Shown in pieces: positions 1 to 36,080 of a stretch of 64,000 nucleotides of DNA (position 1 is the stretch's first letter; every line of letters starts with the position of its first letter). The position numbers and the translations under genes are program-made. Source of the stretch: Verrucomicrobia bacterium UBA3841 (GTDB lineage Bacteria; Verrucomicrobiota; Kiritimatiellia; RFP12; UBA1067); assembly GCA_002392765.1 (NCBI GenBank), contig DGHT01000022.1, positions 1,324 to 65,323 on the forward strand, written 5' to 3'. Below the pieces are notes generated by a model. It did not search any database and had not been told where the DNA came from. It saw only the letters and a program-made list of their open reading frames with translations.

Positions 1-328
1 GAAAGCCGATGTTCTCATCATTACCCTTTCTTTACTCCCGTCTTTATGCCCGTTCTGATTATATATCCCCCGGACCGCAGGGGAGCCGCGCAGAGGAGAG
101 GTTCAGCCGACGCCCCCCGAGCAATTCGCGAAGGCGACGGCCGAGACGGCACCCCGCATTGAGCACACCTCTAGCGAAATTGCTTCGCAATTCTCACTCC
201 GTTCGGGGGATACCGACTTCGTCGACTTCGGCCTTTGGCCTCGGGGGATATGTTCCCCCAGTAAGCCGTTCCCCGTTCTGAACGACCGGGACGGTCGTTC
301 CCCCAGTAGGCTGTTCACTATTCCCCGC
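1..328. repeat. Repeat-rich non-coding region downstream of umuC (palindromic-element debris)
   Basis: ORFs 9..281 and 103..318 are R/S/P-rich shadows. Contains palindrome aattgcTTCgcaatt (178-192; GCGAAGC on the other strand), gggggatacc (205-214; reverse of the GGTATCCCCC boundary at 14738 and 22994), cgacttcg x2 (214-230) and an 8-bp-stem hairpin gaacgacc/ggtcgttc (280-300). Confidence 0.4.
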
Positions 329-1705
329 CTATCTCACTGTCATCAACTCGTCCCAGCGGGTGGTGACGCGCTTGGAAAGCTTACCGCGCTTCATCTTCCA
401 GGCTTTATCCCCGATCCCCTCGCCGGCGGAGAAAACCTTTCCTTTGCCGAAGCGGGCGTTGAGCGAGTCGATGGCCTTGTAGAGTTTTGAGGGATGAGGG
501 ATGGGGGATGAGGGATGAGAGAAGAGGTCGAGTTGCTTCGGGGCGTCAGCCTTTTCCAGCCCAAAGAACACCACGCCCGTCTTGCGGTACTTCGTACCGG
601 GCAGGAAAAGAGCGGGAATCGCCGGACGCAGAGCCTTCATCATTTCGTTCGTGGCGTCCGTAGGCTCCGGGAAAGCGACGCTCCTGATCCGCAAGTCGGC
701 CTCGCCTCCGGCCCCCGGCGGACGCCAGCCGTCCGGTCCCCTGGACTTCCCCCCGGAGCGGAAAATCTGCGCGTAAATATTGCACCCCGCCGCGAACAAT
801 CCGTGTCTGCGCAGCTTAACGGCCGCTTGCGCCGTGAACGATGCTATGGATTCCTCCAGACCTTCGAGCGATCCGACCGGCTCGCCGAAAGAGCGCGAAC
901 AGCTGATGCTGTCGGGATCGGCGTCGTAGTCCTTGTCCTCGTTGCACGGCGTACCGCGCAGCTCTGTCGCGGTGCGCAGGAGCGTCACGCCGCCGATCGA
1001 CCGGATGACGTCGTCGCGGGCGTCCCGCAGGTCTTTCGCCGAGAATATCTGTTCGGCGCGAAGTTTCACGACAAGCCGGCGTCCTACTCCCCATACTTCG
1101 CCGGCTGGAAGCGATGCAAGGACGTCCGTTGGATCGTCGGGAAGGACGAACACGCCCTCTGGACGCTTCTTGGCGATGTGGTCGGCTATCTTGGCGAGCG
1201 TCTTGGTCGGCGCGAAACCGATCCCGCAGGGAAGCCCGATCCAGCGGAGTATCTTGCTTCTGAGCCTTCGGCCATAAGCAAAATACGGGGAATGGGGAAC
1301 GGGGAACGGGGAACGGAAAGAGAAATCGGCGTCTTCTTTTCGCTCTTCCCTCTTCCCTATTCCCTCTAACGCCTCCGGCGACGGAGGCGTTATAAACGCT
1401 TCGTCTATGGAATATTGTTCTACGTCCAGCGCTTCGTCTCGGAGAATCGAGATAAGACGTCTGGACATATCGCCGTAGAGTTCGTAGTTGGACGAGCAGA
1501 AAACAAGCTCTCCCGACGCCTCGCGGTTCTTGAGCTGGAAGTACGGAGTGCCCATCGCGATTCCCAAAGCCTTGAATTCGTCAGACCGCGCGACGCAGCA
1601 TCCGTCGTTGTTCGAGAGGACTGCGACGGGGCGTCCCGCGAGCGAGCGGTTGAACACCCGTTCGCACGAGACGAAGCAGTTGTTGACATCGACGAGGCCG
1701 ATCAT
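329..1705 (-). CDS. umuC: Y-family translesion DNA polymerase V catalytic subunit UmuC
   Basis: MIGLVDVNNCFVSCERVF..VLSNNDGC, SIDEAF, PTKTLAKIA and C-terminal WKMKRGKLSKRVTTRWDELMTVR align with E. coli UmuC landmarks. Start overlaps the umuD stop (ATGA). Carries two in-frame microrepeat insertions. Confidence 0.9.
   Translation of the reverse strand: MIGLVDVNNCFVSCERVFNRSLAGRPVAVLSNNDGCCVARSDEFKALGIAMGTPYFQLKNREASGELVFCSSNYELYGDMSRRLISILRDEALDVEQYSIDEAFITPPSPEALEGIGKREERKEDADFSFRSPFPVPHSPYFAYGRRLRSKILRWIGLPCGIGFAPTKTLAKIADHIAKKRPEGVFVLPDDPTDVLASLPAGEVWGVGRRLVVKLRAEQIFSAKDLRDARDDVIRSIGGVTLLRTATELRGTPCNEDKDYDADPDSISCSRSFGEPVGSLEGLEESIASFTAQAAVKLRRHGLFAAGCNIYAQIFRSGGKSRGPDGWRPPGAGGEADLRIRSVAFPEPTDATNEMMKALRPAIPALFLPGTKYRKTGVVFFGLEKADAPKQLDLFSHPSSPIPHPSKLYKAIDSLNARFGKGKVFSAGEGIGDKAWKMKRGKLSKRVTTRWDELMTVR
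489..516. repeat. Degenerate heptamer array (GAGGGAT/GGGGGAT x4) inside umuC
   Basis: gagggat gagggat gggggat gagggat. Read on the minus strand as SHPSSPIPHPS in a UmuC linker. Confidence 0.9.
1287..1366. repeat. Composite microrepeat insert inside umuC: GGGGAAY x4, spacer, CTMTTCC x3
   Basis: ggggaat ggggaac ggggaac ggggaac (1287-1314), then ctcttcc ctcttcc ctattcc (1343-1363). The arms can pair imperfectly (gggaa/ttccc). Corresponds to about 25 extra residues (..GKREERKEDADFSFRSPFPVPHSP..) relative to E. coli UmuC between SIDEAF and TKTLAK. Confidence 0.85.
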
Positions 1706-2166
1706 TCAACCGAGGGATTGGGGATGCGGGATGAGGGATGCGAGAAGATGTGGATGCAAGCCGTTACTTTCCCGAAGTAATCCAGCTCTTGTCCAGGCTT
1801 GAGTTTAATGACGGGGAACGCTGGATTCGCGGGTTCGAGCCAGACTTCCCTTTCCCCCTCTTTCCTCTTCCCCCTTCCCTCTTCCCTCTCTGCTTTTACG
1901 CGCAGCGTCTTCACGGTGAAATCGCCGTCCACGCAGGCGATGATGACATCTCCGGACGCCGGACGCAGCGAGCGGTCGACTACGAGCAGGTCGCCGTCGC
2001 GGATGCCCCTGCCAATCATCGAGTCGCCCTGGACGCGGACGAAAAACGTCGCCGCCGGACGCTTGACAAGAAGCTCGTTAAGGTCGAGCGGCGTTTCCCG
2101 GTACTGCTCCGCCGGCGACGGGAAACCCGCGACGACCGACCCCGACAATTTCGATTTCGACTGCAT
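1702..2166 (-). CDS. umuD: UmuD-like S24 peptidase (Pol V accessory subunit)
   Basis: No HTH domain. VVAG/FPSPAEQY cleavage-site context, GDSM serine and FTVKTL lysine motifs as in UmuD/LexA C-terminal domain. ATG at 2166 (MQSKSK..). Purine-rich in-frame insert AEREEGRGKRKEGE. Confidence 0.85.
   Translation of the reverse strand: MQSKSKLSGSVVAGFPSPAEQYRETPLDLNELLVKRPAATFFVRVQGDSMIGRGIRDGDLLVVDRSLRPASGDVIIACVDGDFTVKTLRVKAEREEGRGKRKEGEREVWLEPANPAFPVIKLKPGQELDYFGKVTACIHIFSHPSSRIPNPSVE
1713..1740. repeat. Degenerate heptamer array (NNGGGAT x4) at the umuD/umuC junction
   Basis: gagggat tggggat gcgggat gagggat. Encodes the UmuD C-terminal tail SHPSSRIPNPS in the same frame as the umuC array. Confidence 0.9.
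1845..1892. repeat. Pyrimidine-rich CTTCCCY-type microrepeat tract inside umuD
   Basis: cttccctttccccctctttcctcttcccccttccctcttccctctctg. Minus-strand translation KAEREEGRGKRKEGEREVW sits between the conserved FTVK and L.P.N motifs. Confidence 0.8.
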
Positions 2167-4984: not shown

Positions 4985-5916
4985 CGGCATACCTCCGTTT
5001 TTTCGACCGCCCGGAGTTTCGCACTCCTCGATCTTGGATTCAAATCCTTTTCCCGTTCCGTCGCCGTCACGGGATGCCTGAACATCAGGCGCACCCTGGG
5101 CCTTTCGCCAACCCACTTTTCGCCGCCCGCCTGGAGCGATTCGTATCTTCCCGCGTGAGCGGCGAATTTCCTCTTTACGATTCTGTCGGTTATCGACTCG
5201 AACGTTATCACCGCGAAACGCCCGCCGGCCGCAAGAAGCGAAAGCCCCCCTTCCAGCGCCCTTTCCAATTCCCCGACTTCGTCGTTCACATACATCCTCA
5301 AGGCCTGGAACACGCGAGTGGCGGGATGTTTGCCGCCGCTCCTTCCGACCGTCTTCTCCACGAACGCGGCGAGCTCCGCCGTCGACTCGAACGGCTTTGC
5401 GTCCCTCGCGCGCACTATCGCATCCGCCAGCCTCCTCGCCCGCGGCTCTTCGCCCAGCTCGCGGAATATCCTCTCCAGCCCGCCCGCGGAAAATCCATTC
5501 ACCACCGCCGCAGCCGTGAGTCCCTGGAATCGGTCCATACGCATGTCAAGGGGTCCATCCCTGAGAAAACTGAAACCCCGTCCGCCCTCATCAAGCTGAG
5601 GAGACGACACGCCCAGATCCAGAAGGATCCCGTCCGCTTTTTCCCAACCTTTTTCATTTGCAATCCTTTCAATGTCGCCGTGGTTTCCCCTGGCCAGCGT
5701 CAGTCTGCCGGCCCCGGCGCATCCCGCCGCGATCTTCTTTTCCACCTCTTCCAGCGCCTGGCTGTCGCGGTCTATCCCCAGTACGCTTCCGCCGCGCGCG
5801 GCTATCTCCAGAGCATGCCCTGCGCGGCCGAGCGTGCCGTCTACATATCTCCCGCCGTCTTTGACGTCGAGCGCCTTCATTGTCTCTTCGAGAAGAACCG
5901 GAACGTGATTTCCCAT
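4981..5916 (-). CDS. rsmH: 16S rRNA (cytosine1402-N4)-methyltransferase RsmH/MraW
   Basis: HVPVLLEE..DGTLGRAGHA..LLDLGVSSPQLD..GFSF motifs. Position after mraZ. Confidence 0.9.
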   Translation of the reverse strand: MGNHVPVLLEETMKALDVKDGGRYVDGTLGRAGHALEIAARGGSVLGIDRDSQALEEVEKKIAAGCAGAGRLTLARGNHGDIERIANEKGWEKADGILLDLGVSSPQLDEGGRGFSFLRDGPLDMRMDRFQGLTAAAVVNGFSAGGLERIFRELGEEPRARRLADAIVRARDAKPFESTAELAAFVEKTVGRSGGKHPATRVFQALRMYVNDEVGELERALEGGLSLLAAGGRFAVITFESITDRIVKRKFAAHAGRYESLQAGGEKWVGERPRVRLMFRHPVTATEREKDLNPRSRSAKLRAVEKTEVCR

Positions 5917-17493: not shown

Positions 17494-17616
17494 ATTGGCG
17501 TCTTGACCGATCATTGGTCCTCCTGAATGTGTATGGAAAGCAAGCCGCGTCCGGCGGTAGCTCGCGGAAGGTCTCGAACCCCGCGAACCGGACACCCCGA
17601 ACGGGGGTTGAAGCGA

Positions 17617-17651
17617 ATGTAAAATGTAAAGTGTAAAATGTAAAATGTGAG
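17617..17651. repeat. Heptamer array RTGTAAA x4-5 abutting the first late start codon
   Basis: atgtaaa atgtaaa gtgtaaa atgtaaa atgtgag, then ATG at 17652. Confidence 0.9.
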
Positions 17652-19301: not shown

Positions 19302-19901
19302 ATGGCGAAGGCCGCGACCGAGAAGAAGCTGCGCAGCGACGCATGGGAGGCCCCGCTTTCGGCGGAGCTGCGCGAGAAGTTCTACTTCGCGATCGAGCCG
19401 CTGGACTTTCCGGAGGGCTCGGCGCTCGCCGCGAAGGAGCCGTACTCGCTGCGCGCGACGTCGATACAGGCGTACTACCGCTGCCAGGCCCGCGCCCGCG
19501 CGGCGATCGAGAAGGCGAAGACGCGCGCGAGCGCGCTGGCCAAGCTCGAGACCGCGCAGGCCGTCGCGCCGCTCGTGAGGTCGGCGGCGGTCAACGCCGT
19601 CGGCGACGGCGTGATGGCGGACACGCTCGCGTCGCTCGCGGCGACCGCCGTGATGCAGGGCGCGGACAAGGACACGATCACGGCGCTCGGTTCGCTCGCC
19701 TGCGGCTTCCGCGCCAACGCGCTCAAGGCCGCCGCGCAGCAGACCAAGGACGAGCAGCTGAAGCTCGCCCGGGAAAAGTTCGAGGCGGCGGAGAAGAGGC
19801 TGGAGCGCGTCGCCGAGATCGCCGACGCCGCGCGCGGCGGCAAGGTGGACCCCGCGAAGGTCGCCGACGAAATCGACAGAATCCTCGGAAGAAAGAAATA
19901 G
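19302..19901 (+). CDS. Putative small terminase subunit (Mu gp27-position)
   Basis: Immediately upstream of the large terminase. Helical and Ala-rich. Call is by position only. Confidence 0.35.
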   Translation: MAKAATEKKLRSDAWEAPLSAELREKFYFAIEPLDFPEGSALAAKEPYSLRATSIQAYYRCQARARAAIEKAKTRASALAKLETAQAVAPLVRSAAVNAVGDGVMADTLASLAATAVMQGADKDTITALGSLACGFRANALKAAAQQTKDEQLKLAREKFEAAEKRLERVAEIADAARGGKVDPAKVADEIDRILGRKK

Positions 19902-19903
19902 AA

Positions 19904-21349
19904 GTGAACGAAGCCGACACATCATATTTCCTGCCATACCAGGAAGCGTGGATCAACGACGACTCGCCGCTGAAGGTGGCAGAGAAGTCGCGCCGCGTCG
20001 GCTTCACCTACGCGTCGAGCTACCGCATGTTCCAGAAGTGCATGAGGCGCGGCAAGGGCTTCACGCAGTGGGTGAGCTCGCGCGACCGGCTGACGGCGCA
20101 GGAGCTCATACGCGACTACATCGCCATGTGGTGCAAGCTCGCCAACGTCGCCGCCCAGGGACTGACCGGCGAAGACATCCAGGTGATCGACACGGAGAAG
20201 GACATAACCGCCTTTGTCTGCACGTTCCCGAACGGCGCGCGCATCGTCTCGCTCTCCTCGACTCCGGAGGCGTTCGCCGGCAAGGGCGGCGACGTGTTCC
20301 TGGACGAAGTGGATCTGCACCGCGACTCGGGCGCGCTCATCGACATGGCGTATCCCTGCATCATGTGGGGCAACCAGCTTGAGATGGTCAGCGCCTACCG
20401 CGTGGACGGGTCGAAGGACACGCCCTTCGCGAAGCTCGTCGCCGAGGCGAAGAAGGACAACCCGCAGCATGCGTCGCTGCACCGCGTGACGATTCACGAC
20501 GCGGTGGCGCAGGGGCTCGTCGAGAAGATCAACGCGAAGTCGGGCCGCAGCCAGACGCGCGAGGAGTTCCTGCAGCAGACCCGCGCCGGATGCCGCACGC
20601 TCGCCGCATGGGAGTCGCAGTTCGAGTGCAAGGTGCAGGACGCGGGCGGGAAGCTGCTGCCGACGAAGATCCTCGCTCCGTGCGAAATGCCGGCGGAGGA
20701 GATCGCGGCGATCGAGCGCCGCTATCCGGACGCGCCGCGCTTCGCGGGCTTCGACATCGCCCGTCGCCGCCACGCGAGCGCCTGGAGCGAATGGCTGCAG
20801 ATCGGCGTCACATTCTTCCTCGTCAGGCGCGAGACCTTCCACGACATGGAGTTCGAGGCGCAGCGCAAGTTCCTCGAAGCTCAGATGCAGGGCCGCACTT
20901 CCAAGCGCATCACGCGGCTCGCCATGGACGCGACGGGCCTCGGCATGGAGACTGCGGAGTGGGCCGCCAAGAAATGGCCGGGCCGCGTCGACCAGGTGAA
21001 CCTGGAGTCGCACCGCCGCCACGAGATATGCATGATGTTCCAGGACTGGTTCAACACCGCGAACGCGAGGATCCCGGCGGACGCGGTACTTCGCGAGGAC
21101 TACCAGACGCCCGTCCTCAAGACCGCCGCGAACGGCAACGTGCGCGTGTCCGTCCCGGAGTTCGAGAACGACGAGGGCGAGACGTCTCACTGCGACGAGT
21201 TCATGGCGGGGGTGCTGGCGCGCTCCGCCGCCGACGCCGGCGGCGCGGAGCCCGCCATGCAGGCGACGGCGGAGATCGATGACGACGATTTGGGGAACGG
21301 GGAATGGGGAACGGGGAACGGAACCCTTACGAGAAGGAGCTTCATGTGA
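19904..21349 (+). CDS. Terminase large subunit (Mu gp28-like)
   Basis: GTG start at 19904. FLPYQEAWINDDSPLKVAEKSRRVGFTYASS.. N-terminal ATPase pattern. Followed by the portal gene. The C-terminus (LGNGEWGTGNGT) is encoded by a GGGGAAY array. Confidence 0.8.
   Translation: MNEADTSYFLPYQEAWINDDSPLKVAEKSRRVGFTYASSYRMFQKCMRRGKGFTQWVSSRDRLTAQELIRDYIAMWCKLANVAAQGLTGEDIQVIDTEKDITAFVCTFPNGARIVSLSSTPEAFAGKGGDVFLDEVDLHRDSGALIDMAYPCIMWGNQLEMVSAYRVDGSKDTPFAKLVAEAKKDNPQHASLHRVTIHDAVAQGLVEKINAKSGRSQTREEFLQQTRAGCRTLAAWESQFECKVQDAGGKLLPTKILAPCEMPAEEIAAIERRYPDAPRFAGFDIARRRHASAWSEWLQIGVTFFLVRRETFHDMEFEAQRKFLEAQMQGRTSKRITRLAMDATGLGMETAEWAAKKWPGRVDQVNLESHRRHEICMMFQDWFNTANARIPADAVLREDYQTPVLKTAANGNVRVSVPEFENDEGETSHCDEFMAGVLARSAADAGGAEPAMQATAEIDDDDLGNGEWGTGNGTLTRRSFM
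21292..21321. repeat. GGGGAAY heptamer array in the terminase 3' end
   Basis: ggggaacggggaatggggaacggggaacgg, identical 30-mer to 22942-22971. Same family as umuC 1287-1314. Confidence 0.95.
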
Positions 21350-23283
21350 TGAACATCCTAAGCGGCATCAGGCGGTTTTTCTTCCAGAAGGCGTCGAACG
21401 ACTTCGACGCGAACGAGGCGTTCCGCCGCAACCAGCTCAGGTACAACGCGCTGCGCGCGCTCGACCCGGACGTCCTGGTGCGGCACCTCGAGGCGTTCCA
21501 GCGCGGCGACATCTGCGGGCTCGAGCGCGTCATCGACGAGTTCGAGCAGCGCGAGGACAAGATGCGCATCGGCTCGTTCAAGATGGCGGCCGCCGTCTCG
21601 TCCAAGCCGTGGAAGGTGCAGATACGCCAGGGCGAGGAGGAGAACCCGCGCGCCAAGCTGCACCAGGAGCACTTGACGAAATTCTGGAACCGCGTCGAGG
21701 CGACGGACGCCTTCTGCCGCAATAGGAAAGGCGGGCTCAGGCTCCTAGTCAAGCAGATGATGAGCGCGCAGTCGCGCGTCTACTCCGTCCACGACATCTG
21801 CTGGAAGGTCAACGGCGACGGCACATTGAACGCGACGTTCACGCACGTTCCGGCGTGGTGCTTCGAGAACCGCACCGGACGGCTCAGGTACATCAGGAAC
21901 GACTGCGACACCGTCGGCGCGGAGATGCCCGACGGCGAATGGCTCGTCACCGTGGGCGAAGGCGTCGGCGTCGCGGCGGCGGTGATCGCCATGGCCAAGC
22001 GCCTCTCCTGGAACGACTGGCTGCTCTTCTCGGAGAAGTGCGGCATGCCGGTCATCCTGGGCAACACCAACGCGCAGCGCGATACGCCCGCATGGGCGGC
22101 GATGAGCCGCGCCATCCGCGCGATCGCGCCGAAGACCGGGCTTCTCGCCGACACCGGCACGACCCTGAACGCCGTCTCGATGGGCGCGGGCGGACAGAAC
22201 ACATACCGCGAGCTCGTCGACACGGTGGACCGTGCGATATCCGCGCTCTACCGCGGCGGGGACCTCGCCACGCAGTCGAGCGGACCGGACGCCGCGGGCG
22301 TCAACGCCCAGGCGGGCGAGTCGGAGCTGATGGACGACGACGGCTGCAAGATGGTCGCGGAGACGCTGCGCGACCAGGTTGAGAAGTTCGTGATCCGGTT
22401 CGAGCTCGGCGACTTCGAGCCGCTCGCGGAGATCGTCATCAACCCGCCAGCCGACACCGACGACGTCGACCGCGAGATGAAGATCGACACCCACCTCTCC
22501 GGACTCGGCGTGAAGCTGTCGAAGAAGGACGCGCTCGCCCGGTACGGCCGGACGGAGGCGGAGGACGAAAACGACGCCCTTGCCTTGTCGTCGGCACCTG
22601 TGACAGATTCCGATTCGCAGAAACTCACCGCTCAGGACATCGCATCGCTTATCTATCCGCTCAGAGCTGGTGGATATAAAATCTCCCAGCCGGTAGACGA
22701 GAGAGCGACAGGTCTCAAACTGGAGGAAATCACCCCTGGAGATGGAAGTGACGGCAGCAAAAACCAGCTTGCGAACGAGAAGACAGGCAAGACCCCCTTG
22801 CAAAACGACGAGAACCGCTTGCAAAACGCGCCGCGCGTTTCGGACGGACAAGGAGACCCCTCGGGCGAGGACGCGCTTGTAGAGGCTCTAAGCGGCCTGT
22901 TTGAGAAGTCGCTTGCCGAGGCAGCGGCTGACGCCGCCGCCGGGGAACGGGGAATGGGGAACGGGGAACGGGAACCGGTAGGGGCCGACCACCGGTATCC
23001 CCCAGCCGAAGGCTGTCCGCGAAGCGGATGCCCTAGCAGGGGTGCGGCCCAGGAAGAGCTTGCGAACTCCACCGACGCCCAGGGCAACGAGCACGCCGAA
23101 GCCGGATCCAATAACGGTGGCCAGTTCGTCAGCAAGGGTGAGGGCGGCGAAGCCCACACGCCTGAACAAAAGAAACGCATCGACGGCACGATGGCCGTGC
23201 AAACGGTTGTTCCGGACACGAAGCGCAAGACGCTCTTCATAACTTCGACAAGGATTGAAAAGCGAAAGGACGGGCACTTATAG
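21349..23283 (+). CDS. Portal protein (Mu gp29/DUF935-like) with extended C-terminus
   Basis: ATG overlaps the terminase stop and GAGAAGGAG lies upstream. MNILSGIRRFF..FRRNQLRYNALRALDPDVL..FQRGD. About 130 extra C-terminal residues contain repeat-element-encoded sequence. Confidence 0.8.
   Translation: MNILSGIRRFFFQKASNDFDANEAFRRNQLRYNALRALDPDVLVRHLEAFQRGDICGLERVIDEFEQREDKMRIGSFKMAAAVSSKPWKVQIRQGEEENPRAKLHQEHLTKFWNRVEATDAFCRNRKGGLRLLVKQMMSAQSRVYSVHDICWKVNGDGTLNATFTHVPAWCFENRTGRLRYIRNDCDTVGAEMPDGEWLVTVGEGVGVAAAVIAMAKRLSWNDWLLFSEKCGMPVILGNTNAQRDTPAWAAMSRAIRAIAPKTGLLADTGTTLNAVSMGAGGQNTYRELVDTVDRAISALYRGGDLATQSSGPDAAGVNAQAGESELMDDDGCKMVAETLRDQVEKFVIRFELGDFEPLAEIVINPPADTDDVDREMKIDTHLSGLGVKLSKKDALARYGRTEAEDENDALALSSAPVTDSDSQKLTAQDIASLIYPLRAGGYKISQPVDERATGLKLEEITPGDGSDGSKNQLANEKTGKTPLQNDENRLQNAPRVSDGQGDPSGEDALVEALSGLFEKSLAEAAADAAAGERGMGNGEREPVGADHRYPPAEGCPRSGCPSRGAAQEELANSTDAQGNEHAEAGSNNGGQFVSKGEGGEAHTPEQKKRIDGTMAVQTVVPDTKRKTLFITSTRIEKRKDGHL
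22942..23050. repeat. GGGGAAY array plus element X copy, in-frame inside the portal gene
   Basis: 30-mer array 22942-22971, then ggtatccccc-cagcc gaa ggctg-tccgc gaa gcgga-ccct agc aggg (22994-23050). Translated as GERGMGNGERE...YPPAEGCPRSGCPSRGAAQ. Confidence 0.9.
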
Positions 23284-25800: not shown

Positions 25801-25802
25801 GA

Positions 25803-25895
25803 AGTTGAAAGGTTGAAAAGTTGAATAGTTGAGAAGTTGAACAGAGGCAAGAACCTTTCAACCTTTTAACCTTTCAACTTTTCAACTTTTCAACC
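25803..25895. repeat. Long hairpin whose arms are tandem 8-mers (GTTGAAAN x5 / NTTTCAAC x5)
   Basis: agttgaaaggttgaaaagttgaatagttgagaagttgaac - agaggcaagaa - cctttcaaccttttaacctttcaacttttcaacttttcaacc, immediately after the capsid stop. Confidence 0.9.
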
Positions 25896-25899
25896 TGGG

Positions 25900-28733: not shown

Positions 28734-28824
28734 GTGTAAAGTGTAAAAAGGGAAAAGGAAAAGTGAAGGAATAATAGAAATGAAACCCATCCGCAACTTT
28801 ACACTTTACACTTTACATTTCACA
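28734..28824. repeat. Hairpin with heptamer arms (GTGTAAA x2 ... CTTTACA x4) enclosing a start codon
   Basis: gtgtaaagtgtaaa (28734-47) and ctttacactttacactttacatttcaca (28797-824). The ATG of the next ORF (28780) lies in the loop. Confidence 0.85.
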
Positions 28825-29388
28825 CTCTCTTGCGCGGCGCTGGCGGCGGCACGCGAGAAGGTAGAGCCTGCGACACCCGCGCGGGCCCCCGCGTCCGAAA
28901 CCCCGGCCGCCGGGGAAATTTCGCGGATGGGCGGGGAAATCACCCGGGCCGCCGGGTTTTACACCCGGGCCGCCGGGTTTTCTTCCCCGGCCGCCGGGAA
29001 CGCCGAAAGCGTCCTCGCCGCGGCGTTTGCGTCGGCGAACGCGGCGGATATTCCGGCAATCCTCGCCGCGGCGTTTGCGTCGGCGAACGCGGCGGATATT
29101 CCGGCTATCCTCGCCGCGCTTCCGGCGGACATGCTGGATTCCGCCGCGCCGGAAATTGCCGCGACGCTGTACGCGGCGCTACTCAAATCTGCCGCGCCCA
29201 GCCTCTCGCCTGCCGCGCTTGCCGACGCAAAACGCGAGTGGTACGAGCGATTTGCCGCGGACGGCGGCTCGCGCGCAAGTTGGATTCTGCGGCGCGCCAA
29301 GACGCTTGCGGAGCGCGGCGAATCGACGGACGCTCTGCGCGCGGCGTTTTTGTCGACGCTCGAGCGTTGGATGCAAGAGGAGGATTGA
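28780..29388 (+). CDS. Hypothetical Ala-rich protein with internal tandem duplication
   Basis: Contains LAAAFASANAADIPAI x2 and RAAGF x2. Confidence 0.45.
   Translation: MKPIRNFTLYTLHFTLSCAALAAAREKVEPATPARAPASETPAAGEISRMGGEITRAAGFYTRAAGFSSPAAGNAESVLAAAFASANAADIPAILAAAFASANAADIPAILAALPADMLDSAAPEIAATLYAALLKSAAPSLSPAALADAKREWYERFAADGGSRASWILRRAKTLAERGESTDALRAAFLSTLERWMQEED
29013..29119. repeat. 48-bp tandem duplication (about 2.2 copies)
   Basis: cctcgccgcggcgtttgcgtcggcgaacgcggcggatattccggcWat at 29013 and 29061, with a partial third copy. Confidence 0.9.
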
Positions 29389-32853: not shown

Positions 32854-33282
32854 ATGAAGATCAAGGAATTCCAGGAAGCGATAGCCGACGAGTTGAACGG
32901 CATTGACGAGCTTGTTCAGGGCGGATGCAAGGCATTTGCAGAGGACTCCCGGGAAGTCTACAAGGGGTCCGACCAGCACGTCCAAAGCGGGAAGGTCGCC
33001 ATTGTCGTGGTGACGCCGGAGATGACAAGAAACGGCTGCTCGTCCGATGCCATTTCGGCGGAAACGCAGCTGCTTATCCAGTGCAGCGAAAAGCCAATGG
33101 TGGCGCGCGCCCAGCCGGGCGTCATAACCGCGCTCGACGCGGCGGAGATCGTCATGTACGCGCTTGACGGCTCGCAGTTCTGCTGGCTCGATACGCGGCA
33201 GACGCTCGACCGGCAGGCGGGCGTTCTGACTGCTACAGTCACTTTTGCGACATCGATGTCATTCGAGAAGTGTAAAGTGTAA
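32854..33282 (+). CDS. Hypothetical head-tail joining/tail terminator-position protein
   Basis: 142 aa upstream of the tube gene. Call is by position only. Confidence 0.3.
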   Translation: MKIKEFQEAIADELNGIDELVQGGCKAFAEDSREVYKGSDQHVQSGKVAIVVVTPEMTRNGCSSDAISAETQLLIQCSEKPMVARAQPGVITALDAAEIVMYALDGSQFCWLDTRQTLDRQAGVLTATVTFATSMSFEKCKV

Positions 33283-33320
33283 AATTGCGGTATCAAGGAG
33301 ATGGAGCATCTTGTTCCGTC
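33270..33320. repeat. GTGTAAA x2 plus truncated cloverleaf-family copy
   Basis: gtgtaaagtgtaaa (33270-83), then caaggagatg-gagca tct tgttc-cgtc.. (33294-) without the right terminal repeat. Confidence 0.8.
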
Positions 33321-36048: not shown

Positions 36049-36080
36049 CCTTCAACTTTTCAACCTTTCAACTTTTCAAC
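36049..36080. repeat. 8-mer array YTTTCAAC x4
   Basis: cttcaac ttttcaac ctttcaac ttttcaac. Same family and orientation as the right arm of the 25803-25895 hairpin. Confidence 0.9.

What the first reader, a model, noticed from the sequence alone, without database searches (positions are those of the whole stretch)
489..1892. Degenerate heptamer arrays inserted in-frame in umuD and umuC
There are four tracts:
- GAGGGAT-type x4 at 489-516.
- GAGGGAT-type x4 at 1713-1740. Both of these are read as SHPSS(P/R)IP(H/N)PS in the same frame.
- GGGGAAY x4 paired with CTMTTCC x3 at 1287-1366.
- A CTTCCCY tract at 1845-1892.

Aligned by eye to E. coli UmuC and UmuD, they correspond to extra residues in linkers. 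UmuC has about 25 extra aa between SIDEAF and TKTLAK. UmuD has about 14 extra aa between FTVK and L.P.N.

The unit length is 7 nt, so gain or loss of one unit would shift the frame. That is the logic of contingency-locus phase variation, although these repeats are imperfect.

The GGGGAAY family recurs in the prophage terminase and portal, so host and phage share the same repeat system.
Basis: partly seen in the sequence, partly recalled or inferred. Interest (0 to 1): 0.7.

Follow-up and report, generated by a model that had tools for sequence, protein, structure and literature searches.

The report
Heptamer repeat arrays inside umuDC genes
Short G-rich 7-base repeat arrays, a type of microsatellite already known from Xanthomonas and cyanobacteria, sit in-frame in loops of an error-prone DNA polymerase operon of a rumen-type Kiritimatiellae bacterium, where they mostly behave as fast-evolving tolerated linkers, not on/off switches.

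Summary
Five GGGAWNN heptamer arrays lie inside umuD (1702-2166, -) and umuC (329-1705, -). Two more lie in the prophage terminase and portal tails. That is 16 pattern matches against 0.07 expected.

- **Insertion:** array-less orthologues (415-aa UmuC, about 132-aa UmuD) show the arrays are lineage-specific, in-frame insertions or replacements in loops and linkers.
- **Variation:** about 50 orthologous loci vary greatly in array presence, unit type and copy number, but the gene stays in frame. Close strains differ by 7 or 14 aa, which is 3 or 6 units.
- **Frameshift:** one allele (L324) lacks exactly one unit and is frameshifted.
- **Shared hallmarks:** the arrays prefer four units, are predicted to form G-quadruplexes, and often occur as inverted pairs forming hairpins. 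These are the features of the heptamer repeats described in Xanthomonas and Nostoc (Rehm 2015). The same pattern occurs in many phyla and in phages.

Best reading: slippage and template-switch microsatellites filtered by selection for reading frame. This is not a contingency switch.

Three points remain unexplained and interesting:
- The arrays are about 49-fold denser in umuDC than in its flanks.
- Arrays within one operon share unit types.
- In relatives they occur with a 23S-rRNA-IVP-family gene.

The parts
329..1705 (-). umuC (Y-family polymerase, Pol V catalytic subunit), 458 aa. It carries three insertion or hypervariable sites.
   Evidence: Pfam IMS 2.7e-29, IMS_C and DUF4113. Thousands of homologues; the closest are Kiritimatiellae and 415-475 aa long. 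Aligns to solved DinB and Dpo4 structures.
1702..2166 (-). umuD (S24 peptidase), 154 aa. Its stop codon overlaps the umuC start (ATGA).
   Evidence: Pfam Peptidase_S24 6.7e-25. UmuD' chain 1umu at 1.7e-26; the alignment ends at residue 91.
489..523 (+). Array 'site 3': (GAGGGAT-type) x4 plus GAGAGAA, G-rich on the + strand. It is read on the C-rich strand as FSHPSSPIPHPS (UmuC aa 395-406), directly after the clamp-type motif QLDLF.
   Evidence: Orthologues have SPVEKAEASP, HSPFPVP-type or other arrays at this position.
1287..1316 (+). Array 'site 1, right arm': (GGGGAAY) x4, G-rich on the + strand. It encodes RSPFPVPHSP (UmuC aa 130-140).
   Evidence: Predicted four-layer G-quadruplex on the + strand, -31.6 kcal/mol.
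1317..1338 (-). Non-repeat spacer (hairpin loop) between the two site-1 arms. It encodes KEDADFSF.
1339..1366 (-). Array 'site 1, left arm': (GAGGGAA-type) x3-4, G-rich on the coding (-) strand. It encodes EGIGKREERK (UmuC aa 114-123) and pairs with 1287-1316.
   Evidence: RNA fold of 1275-1400(-) is -54.1 kcal/mol against -35.1 +/- 3.6 for shuffles, z = -5.3.
1367..1395 (-). Small perfect hairpin AACGCCTCC-GTCGCC-GGAGGCGTT that precedes the G-array. Its left arm is the native I-T-P-P codons that follow the catalytic SIDEAF motif.
   Evidence: A different but equally self-complementary version (GTTCCGCCAAATTTGGCGGAAC) is present in L007, L020 and L026. It is absent from array-less alleles.
1705..1747 (+). 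Junction array: (GAGGGAT-type) x4 at 1713-1740 plus GCGAGAA. It encodes the UmuD C-terminal tail FSHPSSRIPNPSVE (aa 141-154) and ends 8 nt upstream of the umuC ATG.
   Evidence: Orthologues end ...CIHRF* or ...RFAGKR*. Eleven relatives have a C-rich array 1-16 nt upstream of the umuC start.
1846..1893 (-). UmuD loop array: degenerate GAGGGAA/GGGGGAA units, G-rich on the coding strand. It encodes AEREEGRGKRKEGERE (UmuD aa 92-107) in the turn after FTVKTLRVK.
   Evidence: Array-less orthologues have TYRRDKDGVR here. Others have GNGEWGTGNG or GKREEG arrays of 3-13 units.
21292..21321 (+). (GGGGAAY) x4 in the C-terminal tail of the prophage terminase large subunit (…DDDDLGNGEWGTGNGTLTRRSFM*), just upstream of the portal start.
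   Evidence: Predicted RNA G-quadruplex, -32.6 kcal/mol.
22941..22972 (+). (GGGGAAY) x4 in-frame in the C-terminal region of the Mu-like portal protein (…AAAGERGMGNGEREP…), beyond the conserved portal domain.

Best explanation
The tracts are G-rich heptameric microsatellites with unit GGGAWNN (GGGGAAY, GAGGGAA, GAGGGAT). This is the same kind of repeat as the GGGAATC and GGGGAYT repeats of Xanthomonas and Nostoc.

**How they arise and change (inferred)**
- They grow, shrink and homogenise by replication slippage.
- They also change by short-range template switching or gene conversion between nearby direct and inverted copies.
- That would account for their frequent arrangement as inverted pairs that fold into hairpins, and for arrays within one operon sharing unit types.

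**Why they survive inside genes (shown and inferred)**
- They persist only where three conditions hold.
- First, the strand being read has no stop codon. The GAGGGAT type has TGA on its G strand and is read only on its C strand.
- Second, the encoded Gly/Glu/Arg-rich or Ser/Pro/Phe-rich peptide falls in a permissive loop or tail.
- Third, the net length is a multiple of three.
- Selection therefore makes them behave as 21-nt (7-aa) steps.
- Occasional one-unit slips give null alleles that are mostly purged.

**Shown versus inferred**
- Shown: the arrays, their positions, their polymorphism, frame conservation, the four-unit mode, the hairpin and G-quadruplex predictions, and the wide taxonomic distribution.
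- Inferred: the slippage and template-switch mechanism, and the absence of any protein-level function.
For: - Non-random, period-specific arrays.
- Array-less orthologues define the insertion points: after catalytic SIDEAF, after QLDLF, in the UmuD turn and in the UmuD C-terminal tail.
- Presence and absence are mosaic on the UmuC tree; sister alleles differ.
- All site-1 lengths are multiples of 3. Close loci are single-frame.
- Members of the same 90% cluster differ by +7 or +14 aa. The L001 array has a 21-nt period with 97% matches.
- The L324 allele lacks exactly one heptamer and is frameshifted.
- The unit-number mode is 4: 29 of 75 arrays.
- G-quadruplexes are predicted for each four-unit array. 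The site-1 hairpin has z = -5.3.
- Unit types agree within a locus more than between loci: 0.339 against 0.181, permutation p < 0.0005.
- The same pattern occurs in more than 120 genome stretches from cyanobacteria, Xanthomonadales, Gemmatimonadota, Acidobacteriota, Planctomycetota and a sheep-rumen Kiritimatiellae MAG. It also occurs in more than 120 viral contigs.
- Rehm et al. 2015 (PMC4692102) report the four-unit preference, the convergent pairs and the strain-to-strain length variation.
Against: - A purely neutral slippage model predicts a monotonic length distribution, not a mode at four units.
- The arrays are about 49-fold denser in umuDC than in 254 kb of flanking DNA. Permissiveness alone does not explain this.
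- The left part of the site-1 cassette is 96% identical between two alleles (L001 and L012) whose flanking coding DNA is about 65-90% identical. This hints at constraint or recent transfer.
- Many arrays are orthologous, so counts of arrays are not independent events.
Confidence: 0.6

Rival explanations
1. Selected nucleic-acid structure element. The arrays act as G-quadruplexes or long hairpins in DNA or mRNA. They might tune umuDC expression by limiting umuC translation initiation, by pausing transcription or replication, or by RNase III-type processing of an IVS-like stem.
For: [quoted passage not shown]
- Strand orientation is conserved at each site across orthologues.
- A C-rich array lies 1-16 nt upstream of the umuC ATG in many relatives, and 8 nt upstream in the window.
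- Paired arms usually share the same unit type.
- The site-1 fold has z = -5.3.
- The small hairpin covaries with its native left arm in two allele types.
- Strong enrichment in umuDC.
- In 11 relatives, a 23S-rRNA-IVP-family gene sits between the G- and C-arrays.
Against: - Many functional-looking orthologues have no arrays at all.
- Some alleles have a G-arm without a partner (L034, L038, L022).
- The long-range umuD pairing is not significantly more stable than shuffles, z = -1.8.
- Arm concordance can also come from gene conversion.
- No function was found for the equivalent repeats in Xanthomonas.
Confidence: 0.2
2. True contingency locus. Gain or loss of one heptamer switches Pol V off and on reversibly, giving a phase-variable mutator.
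For: - The unit length is not a multiple of 3.
- Copy number varies between close strains.
- L324 differs from its in-frame sister allele (P0177) by exactly one unit, which puts the DUF4113 domain out of frame.
- L325 is also out of frame at site 3.
Against: - About 50 close alleles are in frame.
- Variation comes in 3-unit steps.
- The arrays are short and imperfect.
- Five arrays per operon would make the OFF state hard to reverse.
- L325 also carries a large deletion, so it shows decay and not switching.
- The same arrays occur in a terminase, a portal and a glycosyltransferase.
Confidence: 0.1
3. Insertion of a miniature mobile element (MITE or REP-like, analogous to Rickettsia palindromic elements) that carries the hairpin, arrays and spacer as one unit.
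For: - The site-1 cassette has a palindromic architecture.
- It is nearly identical in the distant alleles L001 and L012.
- Presence and absence are mosaic on the tree.
- Other small elements do insert in-frame in these genes: the 'ISPERSE' element and the L046 insertion.
Against: - The cassette spacers and hairpins are found only at umuC site 1 in 2.5 Mb of fetched DNA.
- There are no terminal inverted repeats or target duplications distinct from the arrays.
- The left hairpin arm is native coding sequence.
- Unit types differ between alleles at the same site.
Confidence: 0.1

Closest known systems
Quadruplex-forming heptameric repeats GGGAATC (Xanthomonas) and GGGGA(C/T)T (Nostoc), Rehm et al. 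2015, PMC4692102
   Same: - 7-nt unit with a G3-4 tract.
- Clear preference for four units.
- Frequent convergent inverted pairs.
- Extensive length and sequence variation between related strains.
- No association with surface genes.
- The Xanthomonas unit fits the GGGAANN pattern used here, and Xanthomonas and Lysobacter were hit.
   Different: - Those repeats are 89-93% intergenic, usually within 50 bp of ORF ends.
- Here, five arrays are translated in-frame inside one operon and two inside phage structural genes.
- The host is a Kiritimatiellae bacterium.
- The arrays are concentrated in umuDC instead of being spread evenly.
Cyanobacterial short tandemly repeated repetitive (STRR) heptamers (my own knowledge) and TAACTGA repeats of Beggiatoaceae (MacGregor 2015, PMC4679880)
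   Same: - Lineage-specific families of tandem heptamers with 2-6 copies.
- Often located next to start codons.
- Several unit families occur per genome. The window also has AATGTAA/GTGTAAA and AAGTTGAA families.
   Different: - Those are mostly intergenic and not G-quadruplex-capable.
- A role in translation has been proposed but not shown.
Rickettsia palindromic elements (my own knowledge, not tested here)
   Same: Small palindromic DNA inserted in-frame into conserved proteins at surface-exposed sites and tolerated as extra peptide segments.
   Different: - RPEs are dispersed copies of a defined 100-150 nt sequence.
- Here the inserts are tandem heptamers with no dispersed unique core.
Phase-variable simple sequence repeats (contingency loci), including the 7-bp repeats of Haemophilus HMW1A (PMC8262952)
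   Same: Slippage-prone repeats whose unit is not a multiple of three. One natural one-unit frameshift allele was found (L324).
   Different: - The tracts here are short and imperfect.
- Alleles are overwhelmingly in frame.
- Changes occur in three-unit steps.
- The genes are a DNA polymerase and phage structural proteins.

Membership tests
G-rich heptameric SSR (Rehm 2015 type) | Tandem 7-nt units, each containing a run of 3 or more G | tested here: met
   Units are GGGGAAY, GAGGGAA and GAGGGAT.
G-rich heptameric SSR (Rehm 2015 type) | Preference for four units | tested here: met
   Histogram of unit number: 2 units, 15 arrays; 3 units, 12; 4 units, 29; 5 units, 8; 6 or more, 11. The arrays are partly orthologous, so they are not independent.
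G-rich heptameric SSR (Rehm 2015 type) | Frequent convergent inverted pairs | tested here: met
   Site 1 (1287-1316 with 1339-1366), and the UmuD loop array with the junction array..
G-rich heptameric SSR (Rehm 2015 type) | Mostly intergenic, close to ORF ends | tested here: not met
   All 7 G-rich arrays in the window are inside ORFs. Two of them (junction and terminase tail) do lie just upstream of the next start codon.
G-rich heptameric SSR (Rehm 2015 type) | Forms G-quadruplexes in vitro | not testable with these tools
   Prediction only: ViennaRNA with its G-quadruplex model gives -7 to -39 kcal/mol for the G-rich strands.
G-rich heptameric SSR (Rehm 2015 type) | Length variation between related strains | tested here: met
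Contingency locus (phase-variable SSR) | Repeat unit not divisible by three, within an ORF or promoter | tested here: met
   Period 7, inside ORFs.
Contingency locus (phase-variable SSR) | Out-of-frame (OFF) alleles common among closely related strains or within populations | tested here: not met
   None of about 50 tblastn-recovered close alleles is frameshifted at an array. Two such alleles were found by looking at truncated cluster members.
Contingency locus (phase-variable SSR) | Long, perfect tract that gives a high slippage rate | tested here: not met
   3-5 imperfect units, 84-92% matches.
Contingency locus (phase-variable SSR) | Reversible switching measured in a clonal lineage | not testable with these tools
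   Needs reads or cultures.
MITE / REP-like mobile element | Dispersed copies sharing a non-repeat core | tested here: not met
   Spacers and hairpins occur only at umuC site 1 in 2.5 Mb of fetched DNA. That sample is limited and mostly from unrelated genomes.
UmuDC / Pol V operon | S24 peptidase UmuD followed by a Y-family polymerase with a DUF4113 C-terminus, with overlapping genes | tested here: met
   Motifs GDSM, SIDEAF and QLDLF are present.

The most novel reading that the evidence does not exclude
The arrays are not passive. In many relatives they occur together with a 23S-rRNA-IVP-family gene wedged between umuD and umuC. Together these could form a structured DNA or RNA module (G-quadruplex or long stem, possibly processed like an rRNA intervening sequence) that travels with the umuDC cassette. 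Such a module could set, or stochastically switch, the level of an error-prone polymerase. That would be a slippage- or structure-controlled mutator in rumen Kiritimatiellae.

A related reading is that the 49-fold local enrichment and the within-operon homogenisation reveal a local copying mechanism for heptamer arrays.
Probability: 0.12. Interest if true: 0.8.

Novelty: new variant of a known kind. Interest (0 to 1): 0.45.

Why it matters
Heptamer microsatellites are a long-noted feature of bacterial genomes that nobody has explained.

- **A natural experiment.** Dozens of orthologous alleles exist with and without arrays at four or five fixed sites in a well-understood enzyme. This gives a way to separate mutational process from selection: frame conservation, 21-nt steps, the four-unit mode and homogenisation within an operon.
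- **Protein evolution.** Such repeats can be translated and can add or replace 10-60 residues in conserved proteins, so they are a source of linker evolution.
- **If the arrays affect expression.** This would link repeat instability or G-quadruplexes to control of SOS mutagenesis.

Tried and rejected
- **AlphaFold2 model of UmuC from alignment A1.** Mean pLDDT was 48.7, too poor to use. Loop placement rests instead on sequence alignment to the solved DinB and UmuD' structures.
- **Exact-sequence look-up of the window's UmuC (P0001).** Not on record, so the source genome could not be read beyond the window.
- **Portal relatives in IMG/VR.** None found, so polymorphism of the prophage arrays could not be tested.
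- **Searching the protein database with a translated array, (SPFPVPH)n.** It returned only 53-90-aa hypothetical ORFs, mainly from filamentous cyanobacteria. These are probably spurious calls across arrays. The search was uninformative about real in-frame insertions.
- **Rfam.** Only sub-threshold miRNA-precursor-like hits to the site-1 hairpin.
- **LexA-box idea (GAAC/GTTC half-sites in GGGGAAC units).** Rejected. The spacing does not fit known motifs (my own knowledge), and the GAGGGAA and GAGGGAT families lack GAAC.
- **UmuC site-2 insert (686-751).** Not structured, z = +0.87.
- **Long-range pairing of the UmuD loop array with the junction array.** Appears in the minimum-energy fold but is not significant, z = -1.8.
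- **General link between IVP genes and arrays.** Only 2 of 120 genome loci and 1 of 120 viral loci have such a gene.
- **MITE hypothesis.** No dispersed copies found.
Full report
**Genes and organism**

- The minus strand of window 329-2166 encodes a typical umuDC pair.
- UmuD (1702-2166, 154 aa) matches Peptidase_S24. UmuC (329-1705, 458 aa) matches IMS, IMS_C and DUF4113. The stop and start codons overlap as ATGA.
- The closest UmuC homologues are 71-80% identical proteins from metagenomes. The named ones are Kiritimatiellae, and a sheep-rumen Kiritimatiellae MAG also surfaced.

- Tandem Repeats Finder reports period-7 arrays at 488-527, 1285-1316, 1339-1367, 1721-1742 and 1845-1891.
- The consensus GGGAWNN x3 with at most one mismatch gives 16 matches, which make seven arrays, against 0.07 expected. 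Five arrays are in umuDC, one at 21292 and one at 22941.
- A strict detector finds arrays only at periods 7 and 8, and none in 30 dinucleotide shuffles.
- 489-531 and 1712-1754 are 86% identical over 43 nt. Both are translated on the C-rich strand, as FSHPSSPIPHPS and FSHPSSRIPNPSVE.
- 19343-21349 is a terminase large subunit and 21304-23283 a Mu-like portal. Their GGGGAAY x4 arrays lie in C-terminal regions outside the conserved domains.

**The arrays are insertions in permissive places**

- The commonest orthologue is 415 aa with no arrays. Relatives reach 475 aa.
- Alignment A1 and the DNA of about 50 orthologous loci show variation at a few fixed sites.
- Site 1 follows the catalytic SIDEAF motif. 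It is 39 nt in array-less alleles, 117 nt in the window and up to 201 nt elsewhere.
- Site 3 is the linker after the QLDLF motif, which matches the beta-clamp-binding motif of E. coli UmuC (my own knowledge).
- The UmuD turn after FTVK reads TYRRDKDGVR in array-less alleles and carries +13 aa in the window.
- The UmuD C-terminal tail, or the umuD-umuC junction, is the fourth site.
- A further site 2 carries other kinds of insert.
- The alignment to solved UmuD' structures stops exactly at residue 91. Site 1 aligns to a loop after the DE motif of DinB.
- An AlphaFold model was too poor to add anything.

**Why 'same peptide, same frame' is weak evidence**

- Because 7 and 3 share no factor, a heptamer array encodes the same cyclic 7-residue peptide in all three frames of a strand.
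- The orientations in use are stop-free. (GGGGAAY)n gives GNGEWGT-like peptides and its complement gives HSPFPVP-like peptides. (GAGGGAA)n gives EGRGKRE, and its complement gives FPLPSSL.
- (GAGGGAT)n contains TGA on its G strand. It is read only on the C strand in both window copies.
- This follows directly from the sequences.

**Dynamics**

- On a neighbour-joining tree of UmuC, array presence and absence is mosaic. Sister alleles differ, for example L001 against L010 and L006, and L012 against L017.
- Every site-1 length is a multiple of three.
- tblastn with the 415-aa form finds one frame in all close loci. The exception is L046, which carries an unrelated insertion of about 125 nt.
- Within 90% identity clusters, lengths differ by +7 or +14 aa at arrays.
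- The 16-unit array of L001 is a 21-nt repeat with 97% matches.
- Slippage is therefore frequent but filtered for frame.
- Frameshift alleles do exist. L324 has three units where its in-frame sister P0177 has four, which moves the DUF4113 domain into another frame. L325 is out of frame at the same site and also carries a deletion fusing umuD to umuC.
It looks like occasional inactivation, not a switch.

**Resemblance to known repeats**

- Rehm et al. (PMC4692102) described GGGAATC and GGGGA(C/T)T heptamer arrays in Xanthomonas and Nostoc.
- Those arrays have a strong preference for four units, frequent convergent inverted pairs, G-quadruplex formation in vitro and strain-to-strain variation. 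They have no link to surface genes, and no function was found.
- Here the unit-number distribution peaks at four, with 29 of 75 arrays.
- The G-rich strand of each four-unit array is predicted to form a quadruplex.
- Site 1 is an inverted pair. Together with a small perfect hairpin it folds at -54.1 kcal/mol, against -35.1 +/- 3.6 for shuffles.
The hits include cyanobacteria, Xanthomonadales, Gemmatimonadota, Acidobacteriota, Planctomycetota, Bacteroidota and Kiritimatiellae. It hit the same limit in IMG/VR.
- Open frames of at least 120 codons span 41% of the genomic arrays and 73% of the viral arrays. This is an upper bound for in-frame location.
- One Kiritimatiellae example lies in-frame in a glycosyltransferase-like ORF.
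- The kind of element is therefore known. What differs is that it is translated, and that it is concentrated in one operon.

**What remains unexplained**

1. In the close loci plus the window, 57 arrays lie in 98.7 kb of umuDC and only 3 in 253.6 kb of flanks. That is 5.8 against 0.12 per 10 kb. The flanks differ between loci, so umuDC looks like a mobile cassette that carries its arrays. Shared descent inflates the count, but the mosaic pattern argues for continuing gain and loss.
2. Arrays within one operon share unit types more than arrays at the same site in different operons: 0.339 against 0.181, p < 0.0005. The window's two GGGAT-type arrays, 1.2 kb apart, are the clearest case. This points to short-range copying or gene conversion.
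3. The hairpin, G-array and spacer of site 1 are 96% identical between L001 and L012, although the adjacent coding DNA is much more diverged.
4. Array-bearing alleles start with a perfect hairpin whose left arm is the native I(T/V)PP codons. Two allele types have different, self-consistent versions. This fits either a fold-back origin or selection for the stem.
5. In 11 relatives, a 117-aa PF05635 (23S rRNA IVP, bAvd-like) gene lies between umuD and umuC. The C-array follows directly after its stop codon. All of these loci carry arrays. The window has no such gene.

**Verdict**

- The finding is real and more interesting than a chance repeat.
- Its kind is already described, and the phase-variation reading is largely not borne out.
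- I commit to slippage and template-switch microsatellites retained as in-frame linkers, at about 0.6.
- The main rival is a selected structural or regulatory role, at about 0.2.
- Contingency switching and a MITE-like origin are each at about 0.1.

Noticed in passing
L001 9591-9941; also L007, L009, L019, L020, L024, L025, L026, L034, L038, L324: A 117-118-aa gene of the 23S rRNA intervening-sequence protein family (PF05635, weak bAvd-like match) is wedged between umuD and umuC in 11 relatives. All of these loci carry arrays. The C-rich array starts right after its stop codon and ends just before the umuC ATG. The window lacks this gene. Among array-selected loci from other phyla, only 2 of 120 genome loci (L099 and L149, 33 and 190 nt from an array) and 1 of 120 viral loci have such a gene.
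   Followed up: partly
window 17616-17648, 25802-25896, 28735-28826, 33268-33283, 36051-36080: AT-rich 7- and 8-mer arrays (AATGTAA/GTGTAAA and AAGTTGAA families) lie at gene boundaries of the prophage. (AAGTTGAA)x5 and its inverted complement x5 fill the whole gap after the major head gene. The same families recur in other Kiritimatiellae loci (L012 6660-8255, L031 446-483, L001 3868-3899).
   Followed up: partly
window 28780-28826: The (ACTTTAC)x4 array overlaps the first codons of ORF 28780-29388 (MKPIRNFTLYTLHFTL…), if that ORF is real. An AT-rich array may therefore also be translated.
   Followed up: no
window about 150-215 (- strand); UmuC site 2 of P0006, P0011, P0025, P0027, P0142; UmuD of L050: A roughly 50-nt partly palindromic element (…GTATCCCCCGAACGGAGTGAGAATTGCGAAGCAATTTCGCTAGAGGTG…) lies downstream of umuC in the window. 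Related copies are inserted in-frame as GISPERSEPRQRSLEG in UmuC or EISPERSEHCEAMSLEGC in UmuD of relatives. This is a second class of small element translated inside these genes.
   Followed up: partly
window 686-751 (-): UmuC site 2 carries a +15-aa Gly/Pro-rich insert (GKSRGPDGWRPPGAGGEADLRI, against GGGDFLG in relatives). It is not a heptamer array and is not predicted to be structured (z = +0.87).
   Followed up: partly
window 252-323: Two copies of GTTCCCCCAGTARGCYGTTC flank a 9-bp-stem hairpin (GAACGACCG-GGA-CGGTCGTTC) just downstream of the umuC stop codon. This may be a terminator region with array-like half-units.
   Followed up: no
L046 about 5150-5290: An unrelated GC-rich insertion of about 125 nt in the DUF4113 region of umuC shifts the frame. 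It may be another small mobile element.
   Followed up: no
L325 1-200: A deletion joins umuD codons …FTVKTLR directly to umuC …LRWVGIPCG…, removing everything between the UmuD loop array and just past site 1. The same locus is also frameshifted at site 3, so it is a decaying umuDC.
   Followed up: no
L002/L003, L001/L325, L324 flanks: The umuDC cassette sits in unrelated contexts: an integrase plus DNA methylase island, a Phd/Fic pair, and HipA. Gene order relative to DUF4186 also differs from the window. This suggests umuDC moves horizontally among rumen Kiritimatiellae.
   Followed up: partly
L106 1417-1463: A 7-unit GGGGAAY array is in-frame (…RIGERGMGNGERGMGNGERVK…) inside a 525-aa glycosyltransferase-like ORF of a sheep-rumen Kiritimatiellae MAG. 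In-frame arrays are therefore not restricted to umuDC.
   Followed up: partly
L204-L323 (IMG/VR): Of 132 GGGAANN arrays with 4 or more units in viral contigs, 96 are spanned by an open frame of at least 120 codons. Translated heptamer arrays may be common in phage genes.
   Followed up: partly
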